From a phage: a stretch of DNA of 64,000 nt. The position numbers and the translations under genes were made by a program. Position 1 is the first letter of the stretch. Every line of letters starts with the position of its first letter. This document shows, in pieces, positions 3,834 through 21,535 of this stretch. Below the pieces are notes generated by a model. The model did no database searches, was not told where the DNA came from, and worked only from the letters and a program-made list of their open reading frames with translations. The stretch lies in the NCBI GenBank assembly GCA_025832235.1, contig GCA_025832235.1_3649.1. One strand, 5' to 3'.

Positions 3834-3839
3834 AAACTG

Positions 3840-4344: not shown

Positions 4345-4370
4345 TATCAAATAATTGAGGAGACCTCTAA

Positions 4371-4995: not shown

Positions 4996-4999
4996 TAAT

Positions 5000-5727: not shown

Positions 5728-5745
5728 TTTTCTTGCACACAGGTG

Positions 5746-5776: not shown

Positions 5777-5806
5777 CTTCATCTTAACAAGACAGGAGAC
5801 CGATTG

Positions 5807-6064
5807 ATGAAGATTAAATTGAAAAACCTTGAAACGGCAGAGATTCAGGACGGTGTTGATTTCCGTTCTAAAGATGGTGACATCTTAGAGGTAAATATTC
5901 CAACCTACGAGCTGATTAAAGGTTTTGGCAACGTTCCGGAAGAGGATATTACAGAAATTCTTATGATGTTGATTCTTGACGGAACTGTGTTTGTAGGTGA
6001 AGGTGAGAACGCTATTGCAATCCCAGGCCATTTTTATGAAGTAGTTGACGAAGAGGTGCTGTAA
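5807..6064 (+). CDS. hypothetical protein (C-terminal ...FYEVVDEEVL)
   Basis: ORF track (TTG 5804); ATG 5807 after SD CAGGAGA. Confidence 0.6.
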   Translation: MKIKLKNLETAEIQDGVDFRSKDGDILEVNIPTYELIKGFGNVPEEDITEILMMLILDGTVFVGEGENAIAIPGHFYEVVDEEVL

Positions 6065-6415
6065 ATGAAAGTAGAAATTACCGGTTTTGATGTGAATGTG
6101 GTTCCGGAAGATATTTTAGCTAAACTTCCAGAAGGTTTTGGTAACGGCGTTGTGGTGGATGCTGTTCCTCCTACCAAAGACATTCTGCTGCAGTATGGTG
6201 TAGCAGAGGAAGATGTCGATAAAGTTCTTACAATGATGGCAATCGATCGTGTTGTCGTTGTTAAAGGTCTCGATAATTTTGAGAGTGATCCCCTGATTAT
6301 TCGTGGAGATGACTACAAAATCATCGATAATGAAGGCCAAGAGTTCTATGAACCTTGTGCAGAAGATATTCTTAACTTATTACTGGAAGCAGGTACCGAA
6401 GAGGAGGACGAATAA
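6065..6415 (+). CDS. hypothetical acidic protein
   Basis: ORF track; tightly coupled to neighbours. Confidence 0.6.
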   Translation: MKVEITGFDVNVVPEDILAKLPEGFGNGVVVDAVPPTKDILLQYGVAEEDVDKVLTMMAIDRVVVVKGLDNFESDPLIIRGDDYKIIDNEGQEFYEPCAEDILNLLLEAGTEEEDE

Positions 6416-6744
6416 TGAAGATTGACCCGTTACTGAAGGCTCGTGCAGAAAAAGCGTACACCATTAAGCTGACCAACCTGGTTCCTACTTGTCATCCAGA
6501 TGTAGGTTGGCCTGAAGGTCTGGTAGAGGGGACTGTAACAGCTGCATACCTCCCTAACATCAAATACCTTATGGAAATCTTGGAGCTGGATGAGGAAACG
6601 GCAGAAGAGTTCCAGTTGGACATGAAACAAAGTGGGACTCTGGTTATTCACGGGTGGTATAATACTAAAGACGCAGAAGACCCTCTGGTAACTTCTAATC
6701 TGGCATATGAAATCTTAGGGCCTTTGAACCTGGAGGAAGACTAA
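6415..6744 (+). CDS. hypothetical protein
   Basis: ORF track; ATGA overlap with upstream gene. Confidence 0.6.
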   Translation: MKIDPLLKARAEKAYTIKLTNLVPTCHPDVGWPEGLVEGTVTAAYLPNIKYLMEILELDEETAEEFQLDMKQSGTLVIHGWYNTKDAEDPLVTSNLAYEILGPLNLEED

Positions 6745-7031
6745 TGAAAGATCTGGTTAAGATTAAGATTAAAGATACCAATGGAGAACTCAGCCATTTT
6801 GGAATTAATGATGGTGACGAGCTGATCGCACACCTGCCTACCAAGGAGGTTGTAAGCAAAGCAGTTGCCGGAGAAGAAGCTGCAATGCAGGCTGCAGGTG
6901 TGGATGAAAACTATGTAGCTATGTGCATGTGCCGAGATCAGGTTGTTCTGTATAAAGCGTATCGACCAAACGGAGCCACGGAGTGGCTTGTATTCCGACC
7001 CGAAGGATATGAAATCTTAGAGGCACTATGA
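6744..7031 (+). CDS. hypothetical protein
   Basis: ORF track. Confidence 0.6.
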   Translation: MKDLVKIKIKDTNGELSHFGINDGDELIAHLPTKEVVSKAVAGEEAAMQAAGVDENYVAMCMCRDQVVLYKAYRPNGATEWLVFRPEGYEILEAL

Positions 7032-7111
7032 TAAATCTTGCCAAGGTTGCAACGGCACTGTTAATTATTTGCTGGTCAGTAACCTTAACACTGTGTCTTG
7101 TATTTCAGTGA
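7028..7111 (+). CDS. small hydrophobic peptide (27 aa)
   Basis: Hand-translated MINLAKVATALLIICWSVTLTLCLVFQ; ATGA overlap with upstream stop. Confidence 0.3.
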   Translation: MINLAKVATALLIICWSVTLTLCLVFQ

Positions 7112-7120
7112 GGTGCTTGT

Positions 7121-7384
7121 ATGAACATCCTGATGTGGGTTATAGCAGTGGCGTTTGTTGCATGTTTTTGCTGCTGGGTTGCGGTGAGGATTTCTGTAGC
7201 TACCCTTCGGAAGTTGGGGTTCTCAGAATGGGATATTAATATCCTTTCTTTTCGCAATGAAACAATCTCAGCCGCCCTGCTTTGTAAGAAATTTAAGTGG
7301 GAACCTTGTGAGGTCATGAGCTATCTAAGAACAGGCGATATCCCTGAAAGATTTAAAAAAGTTCTTGACGGCAAGGATAAATGA
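7121..7384 (+). CDS. hypothetical membrane protein
   Basis: ORF track; N-terminal TM-like WVIAVAFVACFCCWVAV. Confidence 0.55.
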   Translation: MNILMWVIAVAFVACFCCWVAVRISVATLRKLGFSEWDINILSFRNETISAALLCKKFKWEPCEVMSYLRTGDIPERFKKVLDGKDK

Positions 7385-7437
7385 CAGTATAGTGACTAAC
7401 AAGAGGTGAGGGGGTGACTGATTTTACTGAAGCTTTA

Positions 7438-11544: not shown

Positions 11545-12170
11545 AGTTGCCTTATTGTTACAGGTAAAACAATTACATTGTTAACTATTTCTTATCTTTC
11601 TCTTAGTCATCTAATGATTCCAGTCAGTATAGTTATGTGCAGTAAACATTAGACGACTAAAGATTTCTCTGATTATAGTAACCTATCGTGACAATTTCGA
11701 ACTGTTTACGAAAAATGTTGACACCTGGGCAGGTTTATGTTATGCAGTTTGTACGAATAATTATTTTGTACAGGTATTGACTATTCCGTTATTCTGTGGT
11801 TGGAATAAATACTTTGCAGGCTATAGAATGGTGATCGTACGTGGATTCTGAGATCTGTCGGCTATAGTTACACCCGATTTTTCACGTAGGACACGCTTTT
11901 TGGTTTGTGTAAGTGTATGACTTATAAGGGTTTTTAATTGTTGACAGTATACTGAAGATGTGCATCAGGTTAAATTTTGTGCAATAGCTGCATTACGTGC
12001 AATTTTGGGAGAGAAAACGGGTAAAAATAGCACCGCTACCACACAATGAAAGGTTATGCAATAGCTATTTTACATGTATATTTGTACAGTGTGCGGGATT
12101 GATGGCTCGTCAATTATTCCACTTGTCAGGTAGGGCCGTTTATGGTAGGAAAAGAGCAAACAAAAAGAAA

Positions 12171-12185
12171 GGGGCCTAAGCCCCT
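12171..12185 (-). terminator. rho-independent terminator ending the leftward unit
   Basis: GGGGC-CTAA-GCCCC stem-loop; on the minus strand it is followed by a U-rich tract; just downstream of stop of 12199..12462. Confidence 0.55.
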
Positions 12186-12198
12186 TGATAATGTTGTA

Positions 12199-12462
12199 TT
12201 ATTTGTTGCTCATCCAGTTTTCCCAAGCTGCCTGATAATCTGCCTCACTGCGGCGGATCTCTTCTTGTTCTTCAAGCCGGATCTCTTCTTCCAGGTACCC
12301 AAGGATGTCGGATTTTTTGGTCTGGCGTAACATCCAATCATCTTTTTTACGAGTAAAGATCTTGTACGCTTTCTCGCAAACCTCTTTTTTACTACCTTTT
12401 TGTACTTCAAGAACTTTGTAGGCCATGTACTGAACTAGTTTGAGCTGATCAAGACGTTTCAT
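12199..12462 (-). CDS. hypothetical protein
   Basis: ORF track; SD AAGAGG before ATG. Confidence 0.55.
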   Translation of the reverse strand: MKRLDQLKLVQYMAYKVLEVQKGSKKEVCEKAYKIFTRKKDDWMLRQTKKSDILGYLEEEIRLEEQEEIRRSEADYQAAWENWMSNK

Positions 12463-12494
12463 GATGTTTACCTCTTTATGCGGTTCTGATTAGT

Positions 12495-12508
12495 GGGCCT
12501 TTTGGCCC
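12495..12508 (-). promoter_or_regulatory. 5'-UTR stem-loop (GGGCC-4-GGCCC), member of recurring hairpin family
   Basis: GC stem about 30 nt upstream of start codon. Confidence 0.4.
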
Positions 12509-12522
12509 GTGTCATTATCTTA

Positions 12523-12795
12523 TTACTTATGGCGGCAGAATTCAAGCGTTTTTAATTGATAATCTTCCTCAGCCTGGAGTACGACCGCCTCGATCATTTC
12601 GTTGGCATTGTTAAAGCCATAACCTTTAGCGAAATCATCCGCGCCACCTTCGTGATCATGTTCTGCGTTCATCGCTTCCACAAAATGGAATTCAAGATTA
12701 TTGAGGTAAGGGCTTGATGTTCCGTCCTCTTTTTCGATGAGATTCCAAATAGCATTAAAACGTGATTCGACTTCTTGATTAATCCAGCTTGACAT
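12523..12795 (-). CDS. hypothetical protein
   Basis: ORF track; SD AGAGAGGAAAAC before ATG. Confidence 0.55.
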   Translation of the reverse strand: MSSWINQEVESRFNAIWNLIEKEDGTSSPYLNNLEFHFVEAMNAEHDHEGGADDFAKGYGFNNANEMIEAVVLQAEEDYQLKTLEFCRHK

Positions 12796-12824
12796 GATGT
12801 TTTCCTCTCTTCTGGTTGTTGTGT

Positions 12825-12838
12825 GGGCACTTTTGCCC
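12825..12838 (-). promoter_or_regulatory. 5'-UTR stem-loop (GGGCA-4-TGCCC)
   Basis: Hairpin followed by CA-rich spacer and SD. Confidence 0.4.
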
Positions 12839-12848
12839 CTTCAAGATA

Positions 12849-12877
12849 ATGTTACCCCACCCCCTGGCAGATGTCAA
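12849..12877 (-). promoter_or_regulatory. sigma70-like promoter (TTGACA-N17-TAACAT)
   Basis: TTGACA (plus-strand TGTCAA 12872-12877), 17-nt spacer. Confidence 0.35.
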
Positions 12878-12902
12878 CGGTTTTTATAGTTCTTATATGA
12901 CA

Positions 12903-12945
12903 GGCAGGCCCGGTGATTGTCTCCACCCGTCGCCAGGTGCCTGCC
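12903..12945. repeat. GC-rich element copy C: GGCAGGC...GAGACAATCACCGGG...GCCTGCC (7-bp terminal inverted repeat)
   Basis: Reverse-complement matches copies at 21536-21571 and 21688-21716. Confidence 0.5.
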
Positions 12946-13005
12946 GTGTAATAAGTATAACAAAAAACAGGACCATAGCAAGCCCTGTTTTGTAGTTTAT
13001 AAATA

Positions 13006-13197
13006 TTATATTTTTTCGCCTATGTAGTCCGGTCGGTTTTTCTCTGTCATGCGCTTTAGCAATTCTTGCATGTTACTTATGGCTTGTAGCGTATCCTCTT
13101 CCAGACTTGAATCAACATAATCAGGATCGTCTATAACCTTTCTATGATTATGATAACGCAGTACCGCCAATACCTTTCTAACTTGTTCGGTATTCAT
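13006..13197 (-). CDS. hypothetical protein
   Basis: ORF track. Confidence 0.5.
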   Translation of the reverse strand: MNTEQVRKVLAVLRYHNHRKVIDDPDYVDSSLEEDTLQAISNMQELLKRMTEKNRPDYIGEKI

Positions 13198-13346
13198 TTT
13201 TATCGCTCTTTAAAACAAGGTGCCAACCGTTTCCAATAGATCACTGACTATCAGGACAATACTGATCAGCACATACCTAACCATAAAGGGAAAGATCGCC
13301 AACATTGCCGCCACGATTCCCATGGTGATAATTATCTTTCTCATGA

Positions 13347-13631
13347 TTAACGGGTCACGTAAGTTTTCCCGTTTACGGTTATCTGCAGATCCTCCAGGTC
13401 TGGATCTTCTTTAAGGTCGCGAGCAAGCTCACCGCACCGGATACCCTCGAATCCGTAGTACTCTGTTGTACCGTCATTAAAAGTTTTAGCGGCAAGGCAT
13501 AAGCGATAAGTAACCCCGATTTGATTGACGGCATGAATATCCGTTAGATTAACCTCTTTTGCCAGCTCTTTAGCCATTACAGGCGCATTAAGTCCAACAA
13601 CCAGGGCAACCACTGCGATCATCTTTTTCAT
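13347..13631 (-). CDS. hypothetical secreted/periplasmic protein
   Basis: ORF track; N-terminal signal-peptide-like MKKMIAVVALVVGLNAPVMA. Confidence 0.6.
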   Translation of the reverse strand: MKKMIAVVALVVGLNAPVMAKELAKEVNLTDIHAVNQIGVTYRLCLAAKTFNDGTTEYYGFEGIRCGELARDLKEDPDLEDLQITVNGKTYVTR

Positions 13632-13722
13632 TGTGTCTATCCTCTTTCTGCTACGTTTAAGGCGGCGGTAACCGCCTGTTTAAGCTTTGTTGGTTAATTT
13701 TCGGGTATCGGTATAAATTAAA

Positions 13723-13938
13723 CTATGCTGTACGCTCAACTATAACAACGGTTTGGGGGATCTCCCCCTCCACCACTAGTAAGGCCTTTTTCTGCGTGAT
13801 AGATATCTTTACCCGTTGCAGCGTGGCGGTGAAGTCTTTCATTTCGTCACGCGGTGTTTTAGTGCAGTACCAGATCTCAGGCTTGCCGATCTGTAAGTTG
13901 CGTAAAAATTCTGTTTTGCCTGTTTTGTTAGTGATCAT
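13723..13938 (-). CDS. hypothetical protein
   Basis: ORF track. Confidence 0.5.
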   Translation of the reverse strand: MITNKTGKTEFLRNLQIGKPEIWYCTKTPRDEMKDFTATLQRVKISITQKKALLVVEGEIPQTVVIVERTA

Positions 13939-13947
13939 TTGTCAACC

Positions 13948-14052
13948 TCACCCGATACCGTTGGAAGACAAGATCACATTAGCCATGGTTGCAATCAGGC
14001 CAATACCCAGGGCAATAACCAGGATCACCGCATCAATTAATTTCTGTTTCAT
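13948..14052 (-). CDS. small hydrophobic peptide (34 aa)
   Basis: Hand-translated MKQKLIDAVILVIALGIGLIATMANVILSSNGIG; SD GAAGAGGAAAAC. Confidence 0.3.
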   Translation of the reverse strand: MKQKLIDAVILVIALGIGLIATMANVILSSNGIG

Positions 14053-14142
14053 TTTGTTTTCCTCTTCTTGTTCCAGGTGGCGGACCATTCCACCGCCTTA
14101 TGTATTATGCTTTGTAAGATGGTTGTTTGTTTTCAAACTATT

Positions 14143-14322
14143 TTAACGATAATCATCGTACGCTTTATTAACCTGGCGAATATAACATTCAAAAGCCAGA
14201 TCAATAGATTTATATTCACGGATATACTCACCATAGGAAACCACATACATTTCTATAGCTTCCTCATATGCGAGGAGAATAGAATCCAAGCCTACGATCT
14301 CAGTCTTTGCAATAATAGCCAT
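14143..14322 (-). CDS. hypothetical protein (59 aa)
   Basis: Hand-translated ORF just under the track cut-off; SD AAAGAGGATAAAAATC before ATG. Confidence 0.4.
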   Translation of the reverse strand: MAIIAKTEIVGLDSILLAYEEAIEMYVVSYGEYIREYKSIDLAFECYIRQVNKAYDDYR

Positions 14323-14369
14323 GATTTTTATCCTCTTTGTGGTTGGTGGGGCTTGCCCCTTTGATTTAT

Positions 14370-14397
14370 ATACTACAGTCTTATATGGTCATGTCAA
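14370..14397 (-). promoter_or_regulatory. sigma70-like promoter (TTGACA-N16-TAGTAT) followed by 5'-UTR hairpin at 14348-14359
   Basis: Plus-strand TGTCAA 14392-14397; hairpin GGGG-CTTG-CCCC. Confidence 0.4.
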
Positions 14398-14627
14398 CTA
14401 TTTTCAAAAAATTTTTCTGCTGTAATATTTTTCCCGGTAGGGTTCGCTACTTTCAAAATTCTATCATGCACCGGACGCCCAAAAGAATAAGCGCCGTACA
14501 CAGTAAACCAATAATCGCCGTCAGGCTGTACTATTACCGCCGCATATGGTACGCCTTTTTCGTTTTTGCTGACAAAATAGATCACATTGCCATTAATAAC
14601 CTCAGCGCGTTTAATTTGTTCCATCAT
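14394..14627 (-). CDS. hypothetical protein
   Basis: ORF track. Confidence 0.55.
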   Translation of the reverse strand: MMEQIKRAEVINGNVIYFVSKNEKGVPYAAVIVQPDGDYWFTVYGAYSFGRPVHDRILKVANPTGKNITAEKFFENS

Positions 14628-14681
14628 GATGATTTACCTCTCTTTATTTTCATAATTGGGGCCTTTTCGGCCCCGCCAGGT

Positions 14682-14966
14682 TTATTTATTGATAGCGTGC
14701 AGCGGGAAAGCTACGCCAGGTTGATAGATAACCTTTACAACCTCATCAGGACAAAAGAAATTGCAGAACTCACCGCAATAGGCCTCATCCTCTTTTAATT
14801 CTTCATCAGCATACTCAAAAAAGTAGTCGATGCTTGGATAATCCTGCCCTGGGTTATAGTCAACCATTGTCAAGACCAGTTCAAGATCGTTGCGCAGGAT
14901 ATGCATACCCGCTTTTAAGTATTTTGCTTCCATTTCTACTACATCGCCAGCGGTAACAATAGCCAT
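14682..14966 (-). CDS. hypothetical acidic protein
   Basis: ORF track 14682..15014; internal ATG at 14966 (MAIVTAGD...) follows AGGAG. Confidence 0.5.
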   Translation of the reverse strand: MAIVTAGDVVEMEAKYLKAGMHILRNDLELVLTMVDYNPGQDYPSIDYFFEYADEELKEDEAYCGEFCNFFCPDEVVKVIYQPGVAFPLHAINK

Positions 14967-15107
14967 AGTTTTAACTCCTGTTTCTGTTAATGATTGGGGG
15001 CCGCCCCCTGACACGTACTATTATCCATATTGTAGGGCTTGATGCAAGTACTTCTTTAAAAAAATTTTTAAGCGCCTTGGAGGCCGTTGTAACGCCAAAA
15101 TAATAAA

Positions 15108-15127
15108 GGCCATGCGGTTGCATGGCC
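15108..15127 (-). terminator. rho-independent terminator (GGCCATGC-GGTT-GCATGGCC)
   Basis: 8-bp stem; on minus strand followed by UUUAUUAUUUU; downstream of stop of 15189..15494. Confidence 0.5.
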
Positions 15128-15188
15128 TTTATGTGATTATATCGCTGTAGGCCCTGCTAGGGGCCTTATTTTGCATCATTTGCCGGAA

Positions 15189-15494
15189 CTATACAGAGAA
15201 AACATCGTTCACAATAGCGATCACAATGCCGCCCACCTTGTCACGGTCAACAATGCACAAATCACCATAGATCATGTGGTAGTCTGGATGATCTTTCACG
15301 GAATAGTCAATGAGCGTTTTCTTGTCGTCCAGCTTTGTAACTTCCATTCTCATAACGATATGAGAATCATCAAAGGCATTATTCCGAAAAGTCATAGCCT
15401 GACCACCAGGGCACCCAGTGATCTCCACTTCCACACCATCTACGATCTGACCATCAAAGAAATAAAGATTATTAGCCTGGATAAACATGATCAT
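15189..15494 (-). CDS. hypothetical protein
   Basis: ORF track; SD AAGGAG. Confidence 0.55.
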   Translation of the reverse strand: MIMFIQANNLYFFDGQIVDGVEVEITGCPGGQAMTFRNNAFDDSHIVMRMEVTKLDDKKTLIDYSVKDHPDYHMIYGDLCIVDRDKVGGIVIAIVNDVFSV

Positions 15495-15535
15495 TACTCC
15501 TTGTTAACTGCGTGGTATTTTAACAGGGTTTAAAT

Positions 15536-15579
15536 TTACTTTATTGATGGCCCTAGAGTCAAGGCCATCTAAAAATAAA
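15536..15579 (-). promoter_or_regulatory. conserved 45-bp element, copy 1: hairpin GATGGCC...GGCCATC with TTGACT in the loop, then TAAATT (-10-like)
   Basis: Near-identical to copies at 19248-19292 and 19868-19912. Confidence 0.5.
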
Positions 15580-15581
15580 TT

Positions 15582-15782
15582 TTACAGGCCTACAATCTCT
15601 TTGATTCGTTTAACCGCCGCCTCAGCGCCTTGGGGGTAAAAATTATGGTAACCAATCACGCGAGTGATACTAATCGCCGTTTGATGATCTTCATAGTCGC
15701 CCTTGAAGATTTCTTGACCGTCAATCAGCACGGCAATTTTTTCTTCTTTTTTGAAGTTAATAACGCGGATATTGTTGCTCAT
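15582..15782 (-). CDS. hypothetical protein
   Basis: ORF track. Confidence 0.55.
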   Translation of the reverse strand: MSNNIRVINFKKEEKIAVLIDGQEIFKGDYEDHQTAISITRVIGYHNFYPQGAEAAVKRIKEIVGL

Positions 15783-16040
15783 TTTTGTTTCTCCTTTCTG
15801 GTTTTTGTGTTGGTGGGGATGTTTCCCCGTTGATTGTTATTATCCATATTCAGGACCGGATTGCAACACCCCGGAAGAAAAATTTTTTGAAAAAAGTTAG
15901 GCCCCCAGGGATCGGGGGCCGTTATCAGTTACTTACAGAGATAAAATACATCCCTACGCCTAACAATATTTCAAGGGCGATGATCTCAAGCCATACCATA
16001 ACACGGCGCACCTTATCGGTGCGGGGCTTATCCTTGGGTG

Positions 16041-16286
16041 TCATCGTCTCCCCCTTCCCTCCTGGTAGTAGTGACGTGGTTTACAATGGCCCCCAGGAGT
16101 ACCATCACCACGCACATCACAAGAAAAATTATCTCCGCTGTTGTTCGATCCATTGTTATAAAATTCCTCAAGATCAGGCCTGAAAATAAAGCGTTCGTTA
16201 TTGAATCCGTCACGCCAGGCGGCTGGCTTCAAATCTTCACTAAAGGGATTAATTAACGTGGCATTATTTAAACGGTTGGCCCACAT
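16041..16286 (-). CDS. hypothetical protein
   Basis: ORF track 16041..16304 (TTG); ATG at 16286; overlaps 3' end of 16264..16635 in another frame, so uncertain. Confidence 0.35.
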   Translation of the reverse strand: MWANRLNNATLINPFSEDLKPAAWRDGFNNERFIFRPDLEEFYNNGSNNSGDNFSCDVRGDGTPGGHCKPRHYYQEGRGRR

Positions 16287-16635
16287 ATTTTCTATTCCTC
16301 TCAAATAGGCGATCCGCCTCAGTTAAACATATCTCATGGGCTTGATCTCTGGTTTTAGCTTCATCGAAAACTTGTTGTGCAAGGCTGCAACGCAAGGAGA
16401 CCGGAAGATCACTATAATAGGCGTTGACAAACGTTTGAGCGTCGTACAGGTCTGAAAATACTTTACCCTTTCTATTATTCCCCTTGTCAACAATTGCAAG
16501 GATAACCAATACAATAGTTGCAACCACCCCCAGGAAAATAGATATAATAAACCATAAAAAGGCGGATCTACCCATCTTGCCAGCGATCCAGGCGTTAAAC
16601 AAGGCAACCAATACAGCCAAAATAATAAATTCCAT
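16264..16635 (-). CDS. hypothetical membrane protein (two predicted TM helices)
   Basis: ORF track 16264..16668; ATG 16635 follows AAAGAGG; TM-like MEFIILAVLVALFNAWIAG and FLWFIISIFLGVVATIVLVILAIV. Confidence 0.55.
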   Translation of the reverse strand: MEFIILAVLVALFNAWIAGKMGRSAFLWFIISIFLGVVATIVLVILAIVDKGNNRKGKVFSDLYDAQTFVNAYYSDLPVSLRCSLAQQVFDEAKTRDQAHEICLTEADRLFERNRKYVGQPFK

Positions 16636-16699
16636 TCTATGTACCTCTTTTGCAGTTCTGTTTAACAATAAGGCGGCAAATATGCCGCCTGTTACCTGA

Positions 16700-17080
16700 T
16701 TAAAAATTATCGCCGTAAATCTTTCCGCTTTCTGCCCACACCACCACGCGGGGCATACTATCCCACACGTCTTGTTTTAGATTGAGCGCGTGCAATTCTT
16801 CGGTGGTGCCCATACCTGGCACGGGCTGATTGTATACTGCAAAACGACCACCCGCATAGTCATAGGCCAGAGTTAAATCACACTGGATCATCTTTTTGAT
16901 CATGGCATTAAGCATGGCATTAGCCGCATACTGATCACGTTTTAAAGGCAACTCTTTGATTAGTTTGCGATAGTTTTCAATGTGATCGCACACTGTTTCA
17001 CGTGGAAGATCTTTCATATCCTCGCGAAAGGTAACCAGGTTAAACATGACGGTGTCAATAGCTTTAGTAGTGTTTTTCAT
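16700..17080 (-). CDS. hypothetical protein
   Basis: ORF track 16700..17113; ATG 17080 follows AGAGGAAAAC. Confidence 0.55.
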   Translation of the reverse strand: MKNTTKAIDTVMFNLVTFREDMKDLPRETVCDHIENYRKLIKELPLKRDQYAANAMLNAMIKKMIQCDLTLAYDYAGGRFAVYNQPVPGMGTTEELHALNLKQDVWDSMPRVVVWAESGKIYGDNF

Positions 17081-17171
17081 GATGTTTTCCTCTTTGTTTT
17101 GTGTGGGGGGCAAACGTCTTGCCCCCTTGAGTTTTAATATAGCAGGTTTTTAGGTTATTGCAACACTTTAT

Positions 17172-17795
17172 TTATGAAAAAGTCATCTCGCCATATTCAT
17201 CCACATCAAACCGCCAATCATTGGCCTCGATAAGGCCGATCAGGTTTTCGGTAGTGAATTGTTCAAGATAGGCTTGCTCCAGGTCTACGTAAACCTTGCG
17301 GGATAGCTCCCGTACCGTCTCGGTGATCAGCTCTTCCAGCTCTTCAACTTTATCCTCTTGCTTGGTGGTCAGGTCTAGCCAATTGGTATCGATGCACCCG
17401 CCTATTGTGTTTTCGTGGTGATAATGGCTAAACGGGATACGCTCAACGCTTGCGGATAGCTCGCCATCGTGCATTGTGCCGAACAAGTGACGAATTGAGC
17501 GGAATTTAGTCAAAGACTTGACTTTACGCAAGAATTTTTCTAAGTTTACATTTTCAGCGCTAATTGACGCGCCGTCACCCTGGCACCAAAAGCCGGACCA
17601 ATGTACATCTGTATCTTCAAGCCCGTACTCTGGAAAAACATATTCTTTATAGTATTCAATTACACTTTCTGCAAAAAAGTTATCCCCGCTGTGTTCTTCT
17701 CTTTCGCGGACCATTTCAACGGCTTTTTCTTTTTGTTCGTCGGTCAGCACGTCGAAAGATAAATTGTAACCTGTGGTAATGTTAACGGTGGTCAT
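17172..17795 (-). CDS. hypothetical protein
   Basis: ORF track; own promoter and hairpin; no motif recognised. Confidence 0.6.
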   Translation of the reverse strand: MTTVNITTGYNLSFDVLTDEQKEKAVEMVREREEHSGDNFFAESVIEYYKEYVFPEYGLEDTDVHWSGFWCQGDGASISAENVNLEKFLRKVKSLTKFRSIRHLFGTMHDGELSASVERIPFSHYHHENTIGGCIDTNWLDLTTKQEDKVEELEELITETVRELSRKVYVDLEQAYLEQFTTENLIGLIEANDWRFDVDEYGEMTFS

Positions 17796-17823
17796 GATAT
17801 TTTCTCCTATTTTCTTTGTTGGT

Positions 17824-17842
17824 GGCGGGAAGTTTTCCCGCC
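17824..17842 (-). promoter_or_regulatory. 5'-UTR stem-loop (GGCGGGAA-3-TTCCCGCC)
   Basis: 8-bp GC stem a few nt downstream of the predicted -10. Confidence 0.5.
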
Positions 17843-17852
17843 TGTGTGTTTA

Positions 17853-17880
17853 AGTATACTTATCGAGATTTACTTGTCAA
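17853..17880 (-). promoter_or_regulatory. sigma70-like promoter (TTGACA-N16-TATACT)
   Basis: -35 overlaps last codons of upstream gene 17870..18130; -10 TATACT. Confidence 0.55.
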
Positions 17881-18130
17881 CACTATTTTTTAAATTATTG
17901 TGGCGCAAAATGTTTAAAATCTCTTCAACGTCATCAACACGGCGGCAATTTTTAAACGCTACCAATTGCCCCATGATTTTAATCACTGGGCGGCCTTGCC
18001 AGTGCCCCTGAAGAAAGCGCGCCTTGACTTTATCGGTGGAACTATCACGCCACCAAATAGCCTTGTTGTTGCAGTAGTAAAAATTATTCAGGATAACATC
18101 AACTTTATCAAAATTTTTTAATTTACGCAT
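17870..18130 (-). CDS. hypothetical protein
   Basis: ORF track. Confidence 0.55.
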   Translation of the reverse strand: MRKLKNFDKVDVILNNFYYCNNKAIWWRDSSTDKVKARFLQGHWQGRPVIKIMGQLVAFKNCRRVDDVEEILNILRHNNLKNSVDK

Positions 18131-18535
18131 GGCGTTTACTCCTTTCTCTCTTTGATGTGGTTAGTATAGCTAACCTGTTGACGATGTCAATGATATTTTT
18201 AACGCCATAAAACGGCCCTGGGCGATGTTTTCAGGTTAAAGGGGGCGATTGCATAGGTGGGGGCCTTTTTGGCACTTACAGGGCCAACCAGGGGCGCTAT
18301 TCGTAGGATAGAAATAAAAAGCCCCGCACAATGGCGGGGCGTTGGTTGTTATTTGTCTTTATGGCGGTACCGTTCCGCCTGTCGTTCACGTTCCAAAAGC
18401 AGGCCCGGCAGTTTACGATCATAATGATTCCGCCAGATCTTCCCAAATCTTTTTGGCTTATTCAGTTTATTGTTCCGCTGGCGGCGTTCCGGCAGCTCTT
18501 CGGAATCATGAGATCGCTTTAAAATCTTTTCAAAA

Positions 18536-18883
18536 TTAATCTTCATATATTCCCCCCTTGCTAACTTCAATATTGGCCTGAATAGCCCGGATACGGCGCT
18601 TTATAACTTCCTGATCTGTGTGATCGTATCCCCAAAAGTCTACAATTTTTGCGCCCCCAGCTTCCAGGCGGTACAGTGTTTCCTGCATTTTGTAAGCCGG
18701 GATCGGTCGCGGTGTTACTTGGTCACCTTCTTTATTTTTATACTTTATAATATAATCTTCATTATCGTTGAATGTCCAAAATGGATATTCTGCAAGGGCG
18801 GTACTTTCCTTTTTATCCTGGATCTTGTTTACAATTAAAGCCGTAGCAATAGCGCCAATAATAAAACTAGCCCCGCTGATCAT
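18536..18883 (-). CDS. hypothetical membrane-anchored protein
   Basis: ORF track 18536..18946; ATG 18883 follows GAAAGGAG; N-terminal TM-like ISGASFIIGAIATALIV. Confidence 0.55.
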   Translation of the reverse strand: MISGASFIIGAIATALIVNKIQDKKESTALAEYPFWTFNDNEDYIIKYKNKEGDQVTPRPIPAYKMQETLYRLEAGGAKIVDFWGYDHTDQEVIKRRIRAIQANIEVSKGGIYED

Positions 18884-18958
18884 GTACTTTCTCCTTTCAT
18901 TGTGTTGATAAACTATCTTTATAGATGGCCCTGCTACCAGGACCACCGAAAAACCAGC

Positions 18959-19204
18959 TTATTTGACGATACCGACAAAACAGATCCCGCCTTCCCCTAT
19001 ATAGGCGATATCGGTAATTTGATAATTTGTCAAGATCCGCGTGTTCAGATCATTAATAAAATCGGTCATCGCGTTGGTGTAGTTGTCTTCCGTGTCTAAG
19101 GCATAATCCCAGGTGTAAACCTTTTTACGTCCGAAGCCTTTTACCATGATACGGGCGCTTTTGGTGTTGGTAGGGGCATAATATTTGGTAATTAGTGCGG
19201 CCAT
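18959..19204 (-). CDS. hypothetical protein
   Basis: ORF track; SD GAGGAG. Confidence 0.55.
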   Translation of the reverse strand: MAALITKYYAPTNTKSARIMVKGFGRKKVYTWDYALDTEDNYTNAMTDFINDLNTRILTNYQITDIAYIGEGGICFVGIVK

Positions 19205-19247
19205 TGTTTTAACTCCTCTGTATTAGTTCAGTGTTAACAGTGTAAAG

Positions 19248-19292
19248 TTTACTTTATTGATGGCCCTGGAGTCAAGGCCATCTAAAAATAAA
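19248..19292 (-). promoter_or_regulatory. conserved 45-bp element, copy 2 (hairpin with TTGACT in loop + TAAACT)
   Basis: Immediately downstream of stop of 19294..19635 and about 45 nt upstream of 18959..19204 start. Confidence 0.5.
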
Positions 19293-19293
19293 T

Positions 19294-19635
19294 TTACTCG
19301 TTTTCTTCCAGTTCTGCAAGCTCTTCTTTCACTTCTTCAAGCTCTGTTTGCAATTCCTGGTATTCTTCATCGTCCTCAATATCCAGGCTGTCGATGTAGT
19401 CGCTAAATCCGCAGCGGTAAGCGATAGGATCTAACTCCTTGAGGATACGCGACGGAAGAAAAGAAATGTTTCCGATCATAATTTCGCCATAGATCTCGTC
19501 TAACCATTCATCATAGTTTTCGTCGTACTTGTCCTCGTCGATTTCAAAATTATCGATCTTGTTCTCAAGGTCTGCGATCTGTTTTTTCAGCGCGGCGATC
19601 TGCATGGCTTTTTCTGTGGCGGTCATAGTAGTCAT
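19294..19635 (-). CDS. hypothetical highly acidic protein
   Basis: ORF track; about 30% Asp+Glu with acidic C-terminal tail; own promoter/hairpin. Confidence 0.55.
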   Translation of the reverse strand: MTTMTATEKAMQIAALKKQIADLENKIDNFEIDEDKYDENYDEWLDEIYGEIMIGNISFLPSRILKELDPIAYRCGFSDYIDSLDIEDDEEYQELQTELEEVKEELAELEENE

Positions 19636-19660
19636 AGTGTTTTCTCCTTTTGTGTGCTTT

Positions 19661-19673
19661 GGGAAGTTTTCCC
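19661..19673 (-). promoter_or_regulatory. 5'-UTR stem-loop (GGGAA-3-TTCCC)
   Basis: Same hairpin family. Confidence 0.45.
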
Positions 19674-19686
19674 GTTTACGTGTTTA

Positions 19687-19714
19687 AGTATACTGATTTA
19701 AGTTAGCTTGTCAA
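19687..19714 (-). promoter_or_regulatory. sigma70-like promoter (TTGACA-N16-TATACT)
   Basis: Plus-strand TGTCAA 19709-19714 and AGTATA 19687-19692. Confidence 0.55.
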
Positions 19715-19834
19715 TTAAAAGTTTAAGAAAAATTTTGCTACACCGTTGGCACTACCCATCAACATTTGCGCCAGGATGTAACCAATGATGCAAACGATAA
19801 TAGTTACCTTTGTGTGCTGGCGTGTAGTACTCAT
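19715..19834 (-). CDS. small hydrophobic peptide (39 aa)
   Basis: Hand-translated MSTTRQHTKVTIIVCIIGYILAQMLMGSANGVAKFFLNF; SD AAGGGGG; preceded by element copy 3. Confidence 0.4.
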   Translation of the reverse strand: MSTTRQHTKVTIIVCIIGYILAQMLMGSANGVAKFFLNF

Positions 19835-19867
19835 CTTTAAGCCCCCTTTCCGCTCAACTGTGGTTAG

Positions 19868-19912
19868 TTTACTTTATTGATGGCCCTGGAGTCAAGGCCA
19901 TCTAAAAATAAA
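19868..19912 (-). promoter_or_regulatory. conserved 45-bp element, copy 3
   Basis: Directly downstream of stop of 19914..20309. Confidence 0.5.
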
Positions 19913-19913
19913 C

Positions 19914-20309
19914 TCAGTAAGTTTTCAGTACTTTCCCGTCCAACCTGTCTAACTGAATCTCAATAGCTGCAGAAAACCTATTGTAAACCACATCGCCCAG
20001 GGAGTCCAGCCAATCTATGACGTTATACACCTGCTCTTTATTCTTGCAAGTCCGGATCCGTTTCATTACGTAAGACGGATCAATATTAGCGCTCTCGTTG
20101 TTGTGGTCATGCGCCTGGCCTGCTGCGCTAGTTATAGATTTTACAACCACCTGAAAGGGCTTTAAGGTGCCTTTTGCGTTCATCTCACGCGCTTTCGCGG
20201 CGCGGTTGTTGTATGTTACACAACGGCGGCAAATGTTGACCAAATGCATATCAATAATTTTTTCATCGTTTGCCAGTTCGTTCATGATGCGGCGTACGTT
20301 CTTATTCAT
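19914..20309 (-). CDS. hypothetical protein
   Basis: ORF track; SD AGGAAAAAAG. Confidence 0.55.
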   Translation of the reverse strand: MNKNVRRIMNELANDEKIIDMHLVNICRRCVTYNNRAAKAREMNAKGTLKPFQVVVKSITSAAGQAHDHNNESANIDPSYVMKRIRTCKNKEQVYNVIDWLDSLGDVVYNRFSAAIEIQLDRLDGKVLKTY

Positions 20310-20329
20310 GATCTTTTTTCCTTTGTGTT

Positions 20330-20348
20330 GGCGGGAAACATTCCCGCC
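20330..20348 (-). promoter_or_regulatory. 5'-UTR stem-loop (GGCGGGAA-3-TTCCCGCC)
   Basis: Same stem as 17824-17842 with a different loop. Confidence 0.5.
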
Positions 20349-20358
20349 TTTTGTGTAT

Positions 20359-20386
20359 AGTTTACTTGAATTTTGCAGCGTGTCAA
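20359..20386 (-). promoter_or_regulatory. sigma70-like promoter (TTGACA-N16-TAAACT) abutting an A18 tract
   Basis: Plus-strand TGTCAA 20381-20386; homopolymer immediately upstream on the minus strand. Confidence 0.5.
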
Positions 20387-20389
20387 TAA

Positions 20390-20407
20390 TTTTTTTTTTT
20401 TTTTTTT
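20390..20407. repeat. 18-nt homopolymer (T on plus, A on minus strand)
   Basis: Uninterrupted T run; overlaps stop codon of 20406..20804. Confidence 0.7.
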
Positions 20408-20804
20408 ATTCGTGGGCACATGTTACAATGTGCTTTTTATATCCCAGGCGGTCAGCAAGTGCCGACAAAAACTCTTCTTCGTAGATCCAGCCGTCGGCAG
20501 TGATCCCCATAGCATTTAATGCGCTCTCAAGTGCTGCGTTAGCTTTATCATAACCGTGACCGCTCGCCTTGCCGCCAGTATAGCCGTACTTATTGTTCTT
20601 GTTGTCGTGTATCCAAAAAACGCAGTAGTGAGTGTTCCCACTGGCGGCGGCATAATACCGGATCTCAGCTACTTCGTGCAAATTATTGTCATCGTCCAGG
20701 CCCACCAGATTATAAGCCTTATAAAATCCACGATCACGGCGGCAGTTCTTGACATCAGAAAAAGAAAAGTCCGCATTGTCAAAATTAAAGGTAGTGGTTT
20801 TCAT
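20406..20804 (-). CDS. hypothetical protein
   Basis: ORF track. Confidence 0.55.
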   Translation of the reverse strand: MKTTTFNFDNADFSFSDVKNCRRDRGFYKAYNLVGLDDDNNLHEVAEIRYYAAASGNTHYCVFWIHDNKNNKYGYTGGKASGHGYDKANAALESALNAMGITADGWIYEEEFLSALADRLGYKKHIVTCAHE

Positions 20805-20868
20805 GATTTTATCCTCTTAGTGTTTTTTGTGCTTTTAGTGTATTTTGTGTCAGGCTATATGTCAATAC

Positions 20869-21066
20869 TTATTTTTTATTAAACCAGTGGTTGATCTGGC
20901 CTTTTGTCAGGGCGCAACGATTAAGCTGTTGCAGGGTATAGCTATGACCGCGACGAAATTTATAAAGGCCTTGCCCGTTGTTGATGGTTACATCCGCCCG
21001 GCAAATCACTTGATTGGTGACCACCTGGCGAGTGTTGCGACGTGCTTTGATTCCGTATGCGTTCAT
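20869..21066 (-). CDS. hypothetical protein
   Basis: ORF track; SD GAGAGGACAAG. Confidence 0.45.
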   Translation of the reverse strand: MNAYGIKARRNTRQVVTNQVICRADVTINNGQGLYKFRRGHSYTLQQLNRCALTKGQINHWFNKK

Positions 21067-21144
21067 GATTTCTTGTCCTCTCTGTTAATTAGTGGGGTGT
21101 TGTTCACCTTGCGAGAATAAGAATAACAAGAACTGTCCGAGCTG

Positions 21145-21327
21145 TCAACCATTAGTTAAAATTATTTTTTGGGTAGAATTCTCCAGCCGCCGCCCCTGCC
21201 AGGTTAACCACCGTTTTTCGTACTCTTCTTTATGTTCCAACGCTCCCGCCATAGCCTTTTCAACCAGGGCGATAGCCTCAGCGTCATTAATCGCTACATT
21301 TCCCAGGTGAGTAGCATTACCTTTCAT
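21145..21327 (-). CDS. hypothetical protein
   Basis: ORF track; SD GAGGAGG. Confidence 0.4.
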   Translation of the reverse strand: MKGNATHLGNVAINDAEAIALVEKAMAGALEHKEEYEKRWLTWQGRRLENSTQKIILTNG

Positions 21328-21535
21328 TTTTGTACCTCCTCTTCAATTGTTACCTATCCTATAGCATAGGCCCACCAGGTTTGCAAGCCTTCATTCTCTC
21401 CTACCTGGTCAGTTAGGCCCTGCCAGGCTGGCCCCGCCAGGTTGCAGCGGTCAGCGCATCAGGTTAGAAATTTTTTTTTTTGAAAAGTGTTGACAGCGGC
21501 CCCGCCAGGTGGCAAAATATACCTATCGAAAGGAC

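What the first reader, a model, noticed from the sequence alone, without database searches (positions are those of the whole stretch)
12199..21327. Recurring expression cassette: promoter, GC hairpin at the 5' end of the leader, CA-rich spacer, SD
At least ten leftward small genes are each preceded by TTGACA-N16/17-TATACT-like boxes, then within a few nt a perfect GC stem-loop (for example GGCGGGAA-3-TTCCCGCC at 17824-17842 and 20330-20348, GGGAA-3-TTCCC at 19661-19673), then ACCAACACAAA-like CA-rich sequence, an AGAGGA-type SD and ATG. The hairpins lack a following U-tract, so they are not terminators. They would sit at the extreme 5' end of each transcript, as a stabilising or processing element or a binding site. 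The -35 boxes often overlap the last codons of the upstream gene.
Basis: seen in the sequence. Interest (0 to 1): 0.6.

Follow-up and report, generated by a model that had tools for sequence, protein, structure and literature searches.

The report
Phage early promoter-hairpin-leader expression cassettes
An rV5-type virulent E. coli phage puts the same small control module (host-type promoter, a GC hairpin at the very start of the message, an A/C-rich leader, a strong ribosome site) in front of most small early genes; it is a relative of the 'PeSL' cassettes of T4-like phages, but here the hairpin lies inside the transcript.

Summary
The window is an rV5-like coliphage (Vequintavirus, 93-94% identical to navn, Gotham and rV5). 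On the minus strand between 12.4 and 21.2 kb, eight genes match the full pattern: a sigma70 promoter of at least 9/12, a GC hairpin starting 8-14 nt after the -10 box, then SD and ATG. One more lies at 3.8 kb on the plus strand. Dinucleotide shuffles of the window give 0.12. Two further cassettes have weaker promoters, and three hairpins have none. In 12 related genomes the hairpins mutate, shift register and even invert their loops. They keep their stability all the same (ddG +0.3 against +5.8 kcal/mol simulated). The same layout recurs in phi92, phAPEC8, an Avunavirus and a jumbo Asteriusvirus. None of the hairpins has a U-tract, although six canonical or terminator-like hairpins with U-tracts sit in the same 9 kb. 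Three cassette hairpins lie just downstream of such terminators. Gene-sized indels between relatives are bounded by repeated cassette parts. The closest known system is the PeSL cassette of T4-like phages, where the hairpin sits inside the promoter. My best reading is a transcribed 5'-proximal stem-loop that protects and insulates each early mRNA, with the repeated cassette also serving as recombination homology. No transcript data exist, and RNA-level versus DNA-level action is unresolved.

The parts
20307..20386 (-). Cassette A1: TTGACA-16-TAAACT, 10 nt, hairpin GGCGGGAAtgtTTCCCGCC (20330-20348), AACACAAAGGAAAAAAGATC, ATG at 20309
   Evidence: Leader MFE -14.6, z -4.35.
19633..19714 (-). Cassette A2: TTGACA-16-TATACT, 13 nt, hairpin GGGAAaacTTCCC (19661-19673), A/C-rich leader, AAGGAG, ATG at 19635
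   Evidence: z -1.7. The hairpin is unchanged in all 12 orthologues.
17793..17880 (-). Cassette A3: TTGACA-16-TATACT, 10 nt, hairpin GGCGGGAAaacTTCCCGCC (17824-17842), ACCAACAAAG..., AGGAG, ATG at 17795
   Evidence: z -5.5. A 54-nt repeat is shared with A2 at 80% identity (D8).
17078..17163 (-). Cassette A4: TTGCAA-16-TATATT, 9 nt, hairpin GGGGGCAAGacgTTTGCCCCC (17106-17126, one G.U), CACACAAAACAAAGAGG, ATG at 17080
   Evidence: z -3.4. Orthologues carry a re-registered stem, GGGGCGAGatgaCTTGCCCC.
15780..15866 (-). Cassette A5: TTGCAA-16-GATAAT, 10 nt, hairpin GGGGAaacaTCCCC (15815-15828), ACCAACACAAAAACC, AAGGAG, ATG at 15782. It lies about 35 nt downstream of the canonical terminator at 15900-15920.
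   Evidence: (z -2.9)
14964..15047 (-). Cassette A6: weak promoter TTGCAT-16-GATAAT (8/12), 11 nt, hairpin GGGGGcggCCCCC (14996-15008), AATCATTAACAGAAAC, AGGAG, ATG at 14966. It lies downstream of the terminators at 15103-15132 and 15149-15166.
14320..14397 (-). Cassette A7: TTGACA-16-TAGTAT, 10 nt, hairpin GGGGcaagCCCC (14348-14359), ACCAACCACAAAGAGG, ATG at 14322. The -35 box contains the stop codon of the upstream gene.
   Evidence: Orthologues have longer G-runs and other loops.
12793..12877 (-). Cassette A8: TTGACA-17-TAACAT, 10 nt, hairpin GGGCAaaagTGCCC (12825-12838), ACACAACAACCAGAAGAGAGG, ATG at 12795. It lies downstream of the terminator at 12964-12991.
12460..12545 (-). Cassette A9: TTGAAT-17-TAAGAT (8/12), 8 nt, hairpin GGGCCaaaaGGCCC (12495-12508), leader, GAGG, ATG at 12462. 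Its leader (12459-12494) is the 36-nt junction homology of a one-gene indel relative to rV5 and Gotham.
   Evidence: (z -3.1)
21064..21148 (-). Cassette A10 (weak): TTGACA-17-TATTCT, 11 nt, 4-bp hairpin GGTGaacaaCACC (21096-21108), leader, GAGG, ATG at 21066
   Evidence: z -0.4, not significant on its own
14050..14097 (-). A11: hairpin GGCGGTGGAatggTCCGCCACC (14076-14097), leader, SD, ATG at about 14052. The promoter is doubtful (spacing of 21 nt). Its leader (14037-14068) is the 32-nt junction homology of a one-gene indel.
   Evidence: (z -2.35)
13660..13677 (-). A12: intergenic hairpin AGGCGGTtaccGCCGCCT with no recognisable promoter, upstream of the gene starting at 13631
14658..14674 (-). 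A13: intergenic hairpin GGGGCCgaaaaGGCCCC with no promoter, 10 nt after the upstream stop codon and before the gene starting at 14627. In one relative the loop is inverted (TTTTC).
16671..16690 (-). Intergenic hairpin AGGCGGCAtattTGCCGCCT followed by TATTGTT (weakly terminator-like), with no promoter, before the gene starting at about 16635
19856..19912 (-). Type-B element, copy 1: T-rich stretch, then hairpin GATGGCCTTGactcCAGGGCCATC (19879-19902) containing the -35 box TTGACT, 18 nt, TAAACT. It precedes the gene starting at 19834.
   Evidence: D2
19236..19292 (-). Type-B element, copy 2 (hairpin 19259-19282), before the gene starting at 19204
   Evidence: D2
15523..15579 (-). Type-B element, copy 3 (hairpin 15546-15569), before the gene starting at 15488
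   Evidence: D2
18917..18953 (-). Type-B variant: hairpin GGTGGTCCTGgtagCAGGGCCATC (18924-18947), before the gene starting at 18883
   Evidence: D3
18321..18340 (-). Canonical intrinsic terminator (GCCCCGC...GCGGGGC then TTTTTATTT). Given for contrast, together with 15900-15920, 15103-15132, 12964-12991 and 12169-12186.

Best explanation
The region is a hyperplastic block of about 28 small early ORFans in an rV5-like phage. Most of them carry a PeSL-like composite cassette. Its parts are an AT-rich upstream stretch, a host sigma70 promoter, a short GC-rich stem-loop beginning about 10 nt after the -10 box, a G/U-poor A/C-rich spacer, a strong SD and an ATG.

Most likely mechanism (inferred, not shown):
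1. E. coli RNA polymerase starts about 7 nt after the -10 box, so the stem-loop forms at roughly +2 to +7 of each primary transcript.
2. There it hinders 5'-end-dependent decay, that is, RppH conversion and RNase E 5'-sensing and scanning.
3. It also locks the only G/C-rich bases of the leader into a local structure. The A/C-rich spacer and the SD therefore stay single-stranded whatever lies upstream.
4. In read-through RNA from upstream promoters, the same hairpin serves as an intercistronic 3' and 5' protector.
5. Because the cassette is repeated many times in one orientation, its promoter and leader parts also act as short homologies. Recombination between them inserts, deletes or swaps single genes.
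For: Recurrence is far above chance: 9 full cassettes against 0.12 in shuffles.

The distance from the -10 box to the hairpin is tightly constrained. It is 9-13 nt in 81 of 85 unique cassettes from the window and 14 related loci.

Orthologues in 12 Vequintavirus genomes keep hairpin stability despite substitutions, indels, register shifts and loop inversions. Across 55 variants the mean ddG is +0.28 against +5.8 kcal/mol for random changes, p about 1e-9.

No cassette hairpin is followed by a U-tract on the sense strand. Six terminator-like hairpins with U-tracts lie in the same 9 kb.

A5, A6 and A8 lie just downstream of such terminators, so a second terminator there would be redundant.

The promoterless hairpins A12 and A13 precede genes that can only be expressed by read-through. 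They therefore cannot be efficient terminators.

The same layout is conserved in Stephanstirmvirinae (phi92, phAPEC8), an Avunavirus and a jumbo Asteriusvirus.

The spacer is 80% A+C.

One-gene indels between relatives are flanked by repeated cassette parts: 36-nt and 32-nt leader repeats, and TTGACAT repeats.

The window encodes an Srd-like protein (rV5 gp11 in PMC3606486). T4 Srd stimulates RNase E (Qi et al. 2015, cited in PMC7430671). This would make 5' protection of phage mRNAs useful.

Five-prime stem-loop stabilisation is established for ompA and papA (Emory 1992; Bouvet and Belasco 1992; Arnold 1998; listed in PMC3997798).
Against: There is no experimental 5' end, half-life or termination measurement for any rV5-like phage.

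RNAalifold finds no two-sided compensatory pairs within the orthologue alignments.

Sense-type G.U changes and antisense-type A.C changes are about equally common (and a hand count).

A strand-neutral comparison of sense and antisense folding energy is not significant, p 0.075 and 0.12. A DNA-level role is therefore not excluded.

The type-B hairpins include the -35 box and cannot be 5' ends of their own transcripts.

Several strong promoters lack any hairpin: 20865, 18190, 23727, 24180, 29430 and 30630.

The predicted single-stranded 5' overhang is 1-6 nt. The upper part of that range may be too long for full protection.

The constant spacing may be partly inherited through cassette duplication rather than independently selected.

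For RB49, the PeSL authors showed that one stem-loop reduced downstream lacZ expression about as much as rrnB T1 (PMC2839356).
Confidence: 0.45

Rival explanations
1. The hairpins are terminators or attenuators (or 3'-end stabilisers) for transcription arriving from upstream cassettes. This is the role proposed for PeSL stem-loops. They would insulate each gene and prevent promoter output from accumulating along the array.
For: This is the published interpretation of PeSLs. One RB49 stem-loop lowered downstream lacZ about as much as rrnB T1 (PMC2839356). Nearly every intergenic region of at least 45 nt between 12.2 and 21.1 kb has a GC hairpin, including type-B and promoterless ones that cannot be 5' ends. 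Many consecutive strong promoters would otherwise sum their output.
Against: None of the cassette hairpins has a sense-strand U-tract, whereas true terminators in the same region do. A5, A6 and A8 sit just after canonical terminators. A12 and A13 precede promoterless genes that need read-through. This role would not require the tight 9-13 nt spacing from the -10 box.
Confidence: 0.22
2. The palindromes act on DNA. They would be recombination hot spots, either as cruciform or hairpin structures or as sites for a phage or host recombination protein. They would drive shuffling of gene cassettes, and any RNA structure would be incidental.
For: Gene indels between relatives are bounded by cassette parts. 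Whole-hairpin and loop inversions occur (A13 in L009, A1 in L012), which is typical of palindrome template switching. There is no strand asymmetry in wobble changes. A GGGAA-N3-TTCCC core recurs across phage families. The PeSL authors speculated about a GGGG...CCCC-binding recombination protein.
Against: The junction homologies observed are the -35 box or the leader and SD, not the hairpin itself. Stem sequences differ widely between cassettes, which argues against a sequence-specific protein site. A DNA role does not explain the fixed position just after the start site or the G/U-poor spacer.
Confidence: 0.15
3. The hairpin, with or without the A/C-rich tract, is the binding site of a regulator. 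This would be a phage or host RNA-binding protein, or a DNA-binding repressor at +10 to +30. It would co-ordinately shut off or boost the early genes.
For: A common element at the same place in many early leaders is what a regulon operator looks like. The palindrome overlaps the initially transcribed region, where repressors can act. Part of the hairpins share GGGAA-N3-TTCCC.
Against: Stem and loop sequences are not conserved between cassettes, and loops invert between orthologues. No candidate regulator was identified. There is no Rfam match.
Confidence: 0.1
4. The hairpins have no function of their own. They spread because whole cassettes are copied by recombination, and they persist by descent.
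For: Cassettes share extended similarity: A2 and A3 are 80% identical over 54 nt, and the type-B copies are 86-93% identical. Some promoters work without hairpins.
Against: Hairpin stability is retained through many independent sequence changes, far better than random changes would allow. The architecture is kept across several phage subfamilies that have different stems.
Confidence: 0.05

Closest known systems
PeSL (promoter-early stem-loop) cassettes of T4-like phages RB49 and phi1, also PST and nt-1 (Arbiol et al. 2010, PMC2839356; Comeau et al. 2014, PMC4122927)
   Same: Both have an AT-rich stretch, a consensus sigma70 promoter, a G/C-run stem-loop, an A/C-rich leader, SD and ATG. Both are repeated before ORFans in hyperplastic early regions. 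Both are associated with single-gene insertions, deletions and replacements between close relatives. The window's type-B elements (hairpin over the -35 box) match a described PeSL subclass.
   Different: The phage lineage differs: Vequintavirinae, Stephanstirmvirinae and Asteriusvirus rather than Straboviridae. In the RB49 loci I read, the stem-loop lies between or over the -35 and -10 boxes, so it is not in the cassette's own transcript. Here the main class lies at a fixed 9-13 nt after the -10 box, inside the transcript. PeSL stem-loops were interpreted as terminators. Here context argues against termination. Mini-circles were not tested.
5'-terminal stabilising stem-loops of E. coli mRNAs (ompA hp1, papA; Emory, Bouvet and Belasco 1992; Arnold et al. 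1998) and engineered 5' hairpins
   Same: A short stable hairpin within a few nucleotides of the 5' end. Sequence is free as long as the structure is kept. An unstructured ribosome-binding region follows.
   Different: Those are single, experimentally proven cases. Here it is a genome-wide repeated module whose 5' ends are unmapped. The predicted overhang is 1-6 nt.
Rho-independent terminators
   Same: A GC-rich stem of 5-9 bp with a loop of 3-5 nt.
   Different: No U-tract follows on the sense strand. They are located between a promoter and its gene. Genuine terminators with U-tracts coexist in the same region.
Intercistronic stabiliser hairpins and REP-type elements in polycistronic mRNAs
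   Same: GC hairpins between cistrons that could block 3' exonucleases. This fits the promoterless hairpins A12, A13 and 16671-16690.
   Different: There is no REP consensus. Most copies here are tied to a promoter at a fixed distance.
Hairpin promoters of the phage N4 virion RNA polymerase
   Same: A stem of 5-8 bp with a 3-nt loop near a transcription start.
   Different: No giant virion RNA polymerase is encoded. The large ORFs of the window are a DNA polymerase, a primase-helicase, RIIA and tail proteins. Strong sigma70 boxes lie upstream. Loop and stem sequences are not conserved.

Membership tests
PeSL cassette | Near-consensus sigma70 -35 and -10 boxes | tested here: met
   Matches of 9-11 out of 12 at A1-A5, A7, A8 and A10, and 8 out of 12 at A6 and A9.
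PeSL cassette | AT-rich stretch upstream of the -35 box | tested here: met
   The 9 nt before the -35 box are 62-100% A+T in 9 of 10 cassettes. A5 is the exception (read directly from the alignments). An A19 run precedes A1.
PeSL cassette | Adjacent stable stem-loop, often G-run and C-run | tested here: met
PeSL cassette | SD and start codon of a downstream ORFan at the 3' end; clustered in hyperplastic regions | tested here: met
   All downstream genes are small proteins of unknown function. The region varies in gene content among relatives.
PeSL cassette | Cassettes mark the boundaries of gene insertions, deletions or replacements between close relatives | tested here: met
   There are seven indel sites. 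Four have junction repeats made of -35 or leader-SD sequence.
PeSL cassette | The stem-loop acts as a transcription terminator or attenuator | not testable with these tools
   Sequence context argues against it: no U-tract, placement after real terminators, and promoterless downstream genes.
PeSL cassette | Formation of excised mini-circles | not testable with these tools
   This needs PCR with outward-facing primers on infected cells or virion DNA.
PeSL cassette | Stem-loop placed within or overlapping the promoter (most common PeSL classes) | tested here: not met
   The main class here lies 8-13 nt downstream of the -10 box. Only the four type-B copies overlap the -35 box. In the RB49 loci I read, the stem-loop lies within the promoter. 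The authors do list a rarer 'downstream of -10' subclass.
5'-terminal stabilising stem-loop (ompA type) | Hairpin no more than about 2-4 unpaired nt from the mRNA 5' end | tested here: inconclusive
   The start site is not mapped. With a start 6-8 nt after the -10 box, the overhang is 1-6 nt.
5'-terminal stabilising stem-loop (ompA type) | Structure, not sequence, is conserved | tested here: met
   Stability is kept across 55 orthologue variants, and stems differ between cassettes. There is no classical two-sided covariation.
5'-terminal stabilising stem-loop (ompA type) | Prolongs mRNA half-life in an RNase E / RppH-dependent way | not testable with these tools
   This needs rifampicin-chase experiments.
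Intrinsic terminator | U-tract directly after the stem on the transcribed strand | tested here: not met
   None of A1-A13 is listed on the minus strand by the terminator scan. Their 8-nt tails hold at most 3 T.
Known RNA families (Rfam 15) | Match to a curated covariance model | tested here: not met
   The only hit is a chance-level one (E 0.24, far below the gathering score).

The most novel reading that the evidence does not exclude
The 5' hairpins could be a self-marking device. The phage encodes an Srd-like protein which, as in T4, may stimulate RNase E to destroy host mRNAs. The stem-loop at the start of each early phage message would then exempt phage transcripts from that attack. This would amount to RNA-level discrimination of self from non-self. 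The device would travel with every gene cassette that is shuffled between large virulent coliphages (rV5-like, phi92-like and Asteriusvirus jumbo phages).
Probability: 0.15. Interest if true: 0.75.

Novelty: new variant of a known kind. Interest (0 to 1): 0.45.

Why it matters
If the hairpin is a 5' protector and insulator, these phages have evolved the same design that synthetic biologists use for context-independent expression: a strong promoter, a 5' hairpin, an unstructured leader and a strong SD. They apply it gene by gene to their host-takeover ORFans.

The finding extends PeSL-type modular gene shuffling beyond T4-like phages to at least three other groups of large coliphages. That supports the idea that regulatory cassettes act as the linkers of modular phage evolution.

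It also corrects annotation. The 20-mers deposited as 'PHIRE promoters' in phAPEC8 are the hairpins, not promoters.

It offers ready-made natural parts and clear experiments on early mRNA stability during infection.

Tried and rejected
N4-type hairpin promoters were rejected. No virion RNA polymerase is encoded, sigma70 boxes are present, and the loops are variable.

nut/boxB or put-type antitermination sites were rejected. There is one hairpin per gene, no boxA, and no conserved loop.

RNase III sites were rejected because the stems are only 4-9 bp.

The Rfam search found nothing.

The wobble-asymmetry test of sense G.U against A.C was inconclusive.

My first comparison of sense and antisense MFE gave p = 4e-7. 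I discarded it because the segments had been chosen on the sense fold. The strand-neutral version is not significant.

RNAalifold on orthologues of A4, A5 and A11 gave no two-sided compensatory pairs. I therefore do not claim classical covariation.

An IMG/VR scan with promoter plus half-hairpin returned mostly chance matches. Only 6 of 129 were complete cassettes, all from contigs of 97-149 kb.

Searching phages with the 90-aa protein (rV5 ORF167, annotated as RB49-like) did not list RB49 among the rows shown, so that lead was dropped.

The antisense-terminator idea was considered because a few hairpins are followed by T-rich sequence on the plus strand. It holds for only 3-4 of 13, and there are no plus-strand genes to protect.

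Literature searches for transcript mapping in Vequintavirinae found nothing.

Full report
IDENTITY OF THE WINDOW

The stretch 12199-21327 is 93-94% identical over its full length to Vequintavirus genomes: navn, Gotham, JES2013, FFH2 and rV5, among 199 matching records. In rV5 it corresponds to ORF165-197, which are small leftward genes of unknown function.

The rV5 genome paper predicted 33 sigma70-type promoters and 20 terminators. It concluded that the phage relies on host RNA polymerase, and it says nothing about hairpins downstream of promoters (PMC3606486). The large ORFs of the window are a DNA polymerase, a primase-helicase, RIIA and tail proteins. No RNA polymerase is present.

CHECK OF THE OBSERVATION

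The example hairpins are at the stated coordinates.

I scanned for three things together: a promoter of at least 9/12, a Watson-Crick hairpin (at least 4 bp, at least 3 GC pairs, loop 3-7) starting 8-14 nt after the -10 box, and SD-ATG within 45 nt.
- This finds 8 cassettes on the minus strand, all between 12.8 and 21.1 kb, and one on the plus strand at 3.8 kb.
- One hundred dinucleotide-preserving shuffles of the window give 0.12 +/- 0.35, with a maximum of 2.
- Two more cassettes, A6 and A9, have 8/12 promoters.
- A10 has only a 4-bp stem.
- A11 has a doubtful promoter.
- Three GC hairpins (13660-13677, 14658-14674, 16671-16690) have no promoter.

Leader folding energies beat at least 197 of 200 shuffles for 8 of 13 leaders.

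The spacer between hairpin and SD is 54% A, 26% C, 9% G and 11% T. However, A/C-rich pre-SD sequence is also seen at hairpin-less promoters of this phage. It is therefore a general leader property, not a property of the hairpin cassettes.

The hairpin is not 'within a few nt' of the -10 box. It starts 8-13 nt after it. Across the window and 14 related loci, it starts 9-13 nt after the -10 box in 81 of 85 unique cassettes.

WHAT ELSE IS IN THE REGION

A 57-nt element is present three times, plus one variant. It carries a 10-bp hairpin, GATGGCCTTGactcCAGGGCCATC, that contains the -35 box of a TTGACT-18-TAAACT promoter. I call this type B.

Six terminator-like hairpins with U-tracts lie on the same strand: 18321-18340, 15900-15920, 15103-15132, 12964-12991 and 12169-12186, plus the weaker 16671-16690.

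Nearly every intergenic region of at least 45 nt between 12.2 and 21.1 kb therefore holds a GC hairpin of some kind. By contrast, the promoters at 20865 and 18190 and the strong promoters between 21.3 and 31 kb have none.

COMPARATIVE EVIDENCE

I fetched the homologous region from 12 Vequintavirus genomes and aligned each cassette.

Promoter boxes, leader and SD are well conserved. The hairpins are the most variable part. They show substitutions, G-run length changes, re-registered stems (A4), stem extension (A5), and loop or whole-hairpin inversions (A13 in L009, A1 in L012). Almost all variants still fold.

Across 55 distinct variants, the mean change in folding energy is +0.28 kcal/mol. The same number of random changes gives +5.8 kcal/mol (Wilcoxon p about 1e-9).

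RNAalifold nevertheless reports no pair with changes on both sides within these shallow alignments. It finds only one-sided wobble changes. I therefore claim conservation of hairpin potential, not classical covariation.

Tests meant to separate RNA from DNA were inconclusive:
- G.U and A.C changes are about equally frequent.
- A strand-neutral comparison of sense and antisense folding energy is not significant.
- An earlier significant result was biased by how I chose the segments, and I discarded it.

BREADTH ACROSS PHAGE GROUPS

The same order recurs in several other groups. It runs: promoter, about 11-15 nt (often CACATAG), a hairpin such as GGCGGGAAAtggTTTCCCGCC or GGGCGGCAatagTGCCGCTC, an A-rich leader, SD, ATG. 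The groups are:
- phi92
- phAPEC8 (Stephanstirmvirinae)
- an Avunavirus
- the jumbo Asteriusvirus slurp01

In the phAPEC8 record, the 20-mers annotated as 'PHIRE promoters' are these hairpins.

A pattern scan of IMG/VR returned complete cassettes only from contigs of 97-149 kb.

GENE SHUFFLING

Pairwise comparison with the 12 relatives shows seven sites of single-gene insertion, deletion or replacement, all in intergenic DNA. At four of these sites the junctions are direct repeats made of cassette parts:
- a 36-nt leader repeat at 12459-12494
- a 32-nt leader-SD repeat at 14037-14068
- TTGACAT repeats flanking an extra gene at the 18190 promoter

COMPARISON WITH WHAT IS KNOWN

The closest published system is the PeSL cassette of the T4-like phages RB49 and phi1. 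It consists of strong sigma70 promoters plus GGGG...CCCC stem-loops in hyperplastic regions. The stem-loops were interpreted as terminators or attenuators, and the cassettes as recombination linkers that can form mini-circles (PMC2839356; PMC4122927).

I read RB49 PeSLs directly. There the stem-loop lies between or over the -35 and -10 boxes, so it is not part of the cassette's own transcript.

PeSLs appear in the searchable literature only for T4-like phages. Papers on rV5, Certrevirus CB7, CBB and PA5oct mention only sigma70-like promoters. No Rfam family matches.

HOW IT MOST LIKELY WORKS

These points are shown by sequence:
- a recurrent, conserved hairpin at a fixed place just after the expected start site
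- no U-tract
- coexistence with real terminators
- three cassette hairpins (A5, A6, A8) placed right after real terminators
- promoterless hairpins in front of genes that need read-through
- indel junctions in cassette repeats

From these I infer a mechanism:
- The main-class hairpin works in the cassette's own mRNA as a 5'-proximal stem-loop.
- It impedes RppH and RNase E entry. This is established for ompA and papA (references listed in PMC3997798). Obstruction of RNase E scanning by structure is my own recollection of Richards and Belasco 2019.
- It also keeps the ribosome-binding region unstructured.
- It doubles as an intercistronic protector in read-through RNA.
- The repeated promoter and leader segments supply homology for cassette exchange.

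A protein of the window (48815-49795) matches the Srd family (rV5 gp11). T4 Srd stimulates RNase E. That would give 5' protection a clear purpose, but this link is speculative.

I put 0.45 on this mechanism. The rivals are attenuation of upstream transcription (0.22), a purely DNA-level recombination role (0.15), a regulator-binding site (0.10) and no function (0.05).

VERDICT

This is a new variant of a known kind of element. It is a PeSL-like cassette in other phage lineages, with the stem-loop moved into the transcript, and that implies a different job for the hairpin.

It is of moderate interest, for three reasons:
- Five-prime stabilising hairpins and PeSLs are both known.
- Their systematic combination across several families of large coliphages is, as far as I could find, undescribed.
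- It is directly testable.

Noticed in passing
window 21369-21509 (minus strand), also 21193, 14670 and 15151: The motif CCTGGYRGGGC occurs 12 times in the window against 2.2 expected. Five copies cluster within 140 nt, in the largely non-coding stretch upstream of the first gene of the finding.
   Followed up: partly
window about 20388-20406 and 21470-21480 (minus strand): There are long A homopolymers. An A19 run lies directly upstream of the -35 box of cassette A1, and an A11 run lies near the CCTGG motif cluster. They could be UP elements or slippage-prone tracts.
   Followed up: no
window 48815-49795 (+): A 326-aa protein, the first gene after a divergent promoter pair, matches PHROGs named 'Srd anti-sigma factor' (8e-10) and 'decoy of host sigma70' (1.6e-12). 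Its best PHROG hit is labelled HNH endonuclease. It corresponds to rV5 gp11.
   Followed up: partly
window 31556-34951 (-): The DNA polymerase ORF (1132 aa) has an insert of about 340 aa (residues 664-998). The insert matches unrelated PHROGs (PhoH-like, ribonucleotide reductase, thymidylate synthase). This is the pattern expected of an intein or another mobile insertion.
   Followed up: no
window 3840-3916 (+): This is the only plus-strand cassette: TTGACA-17-TATCAT, 8 nt, then the hairpin AAGAGGGtttggttCCCTCTT. Its arms look like an SD and an anti-SD sequence. CTTTAAAAGG and ATG follow.
   Followed up: no
L136 (Asteriusvirus slurp01) 2100-7400; L137 (Avunavirus 24-2-1) 3900-6500: A jumbo phage and an Avunavirus both carry homologues of the window's 207-aa gene (17172-17795). 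In both, small genes are preceded by the same promoter-hairpin-leader layout, for example TATAATgttttacatcgagaGCGGGAAcacTTCCCGC.
   Followed up: partly
L014 (phAPEC8) 556-575, 937-956, 1787-1806, 3202-3221: The GenBank features 'putative promoter determined with PHIRE' are the hairpin 20-mers (GTAGGGCGGCAATGGTGCCG). They lie downstream of sigma70-type promoters, so the annotation is probably wrong.
   Followed up: yes
orthologues of window 14658-14674 (L009) and 20330-20348 (L012): In some relatives the hairpin loop or the whole hairpin is inverted (GAAAA to TTTTC; TGT to ACA). This indicates palindrome-mediated template switching.
   Followed up: partly
window 15176-15196, 12965-13005, 13210-13351, 14003-14128, 18168-18190: Relatives differ from the window by whole small genes at these points, with 282-620 nt extra or 140-219 nt missing. 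The block is therefore hyperplastic.
   Followed up: yes
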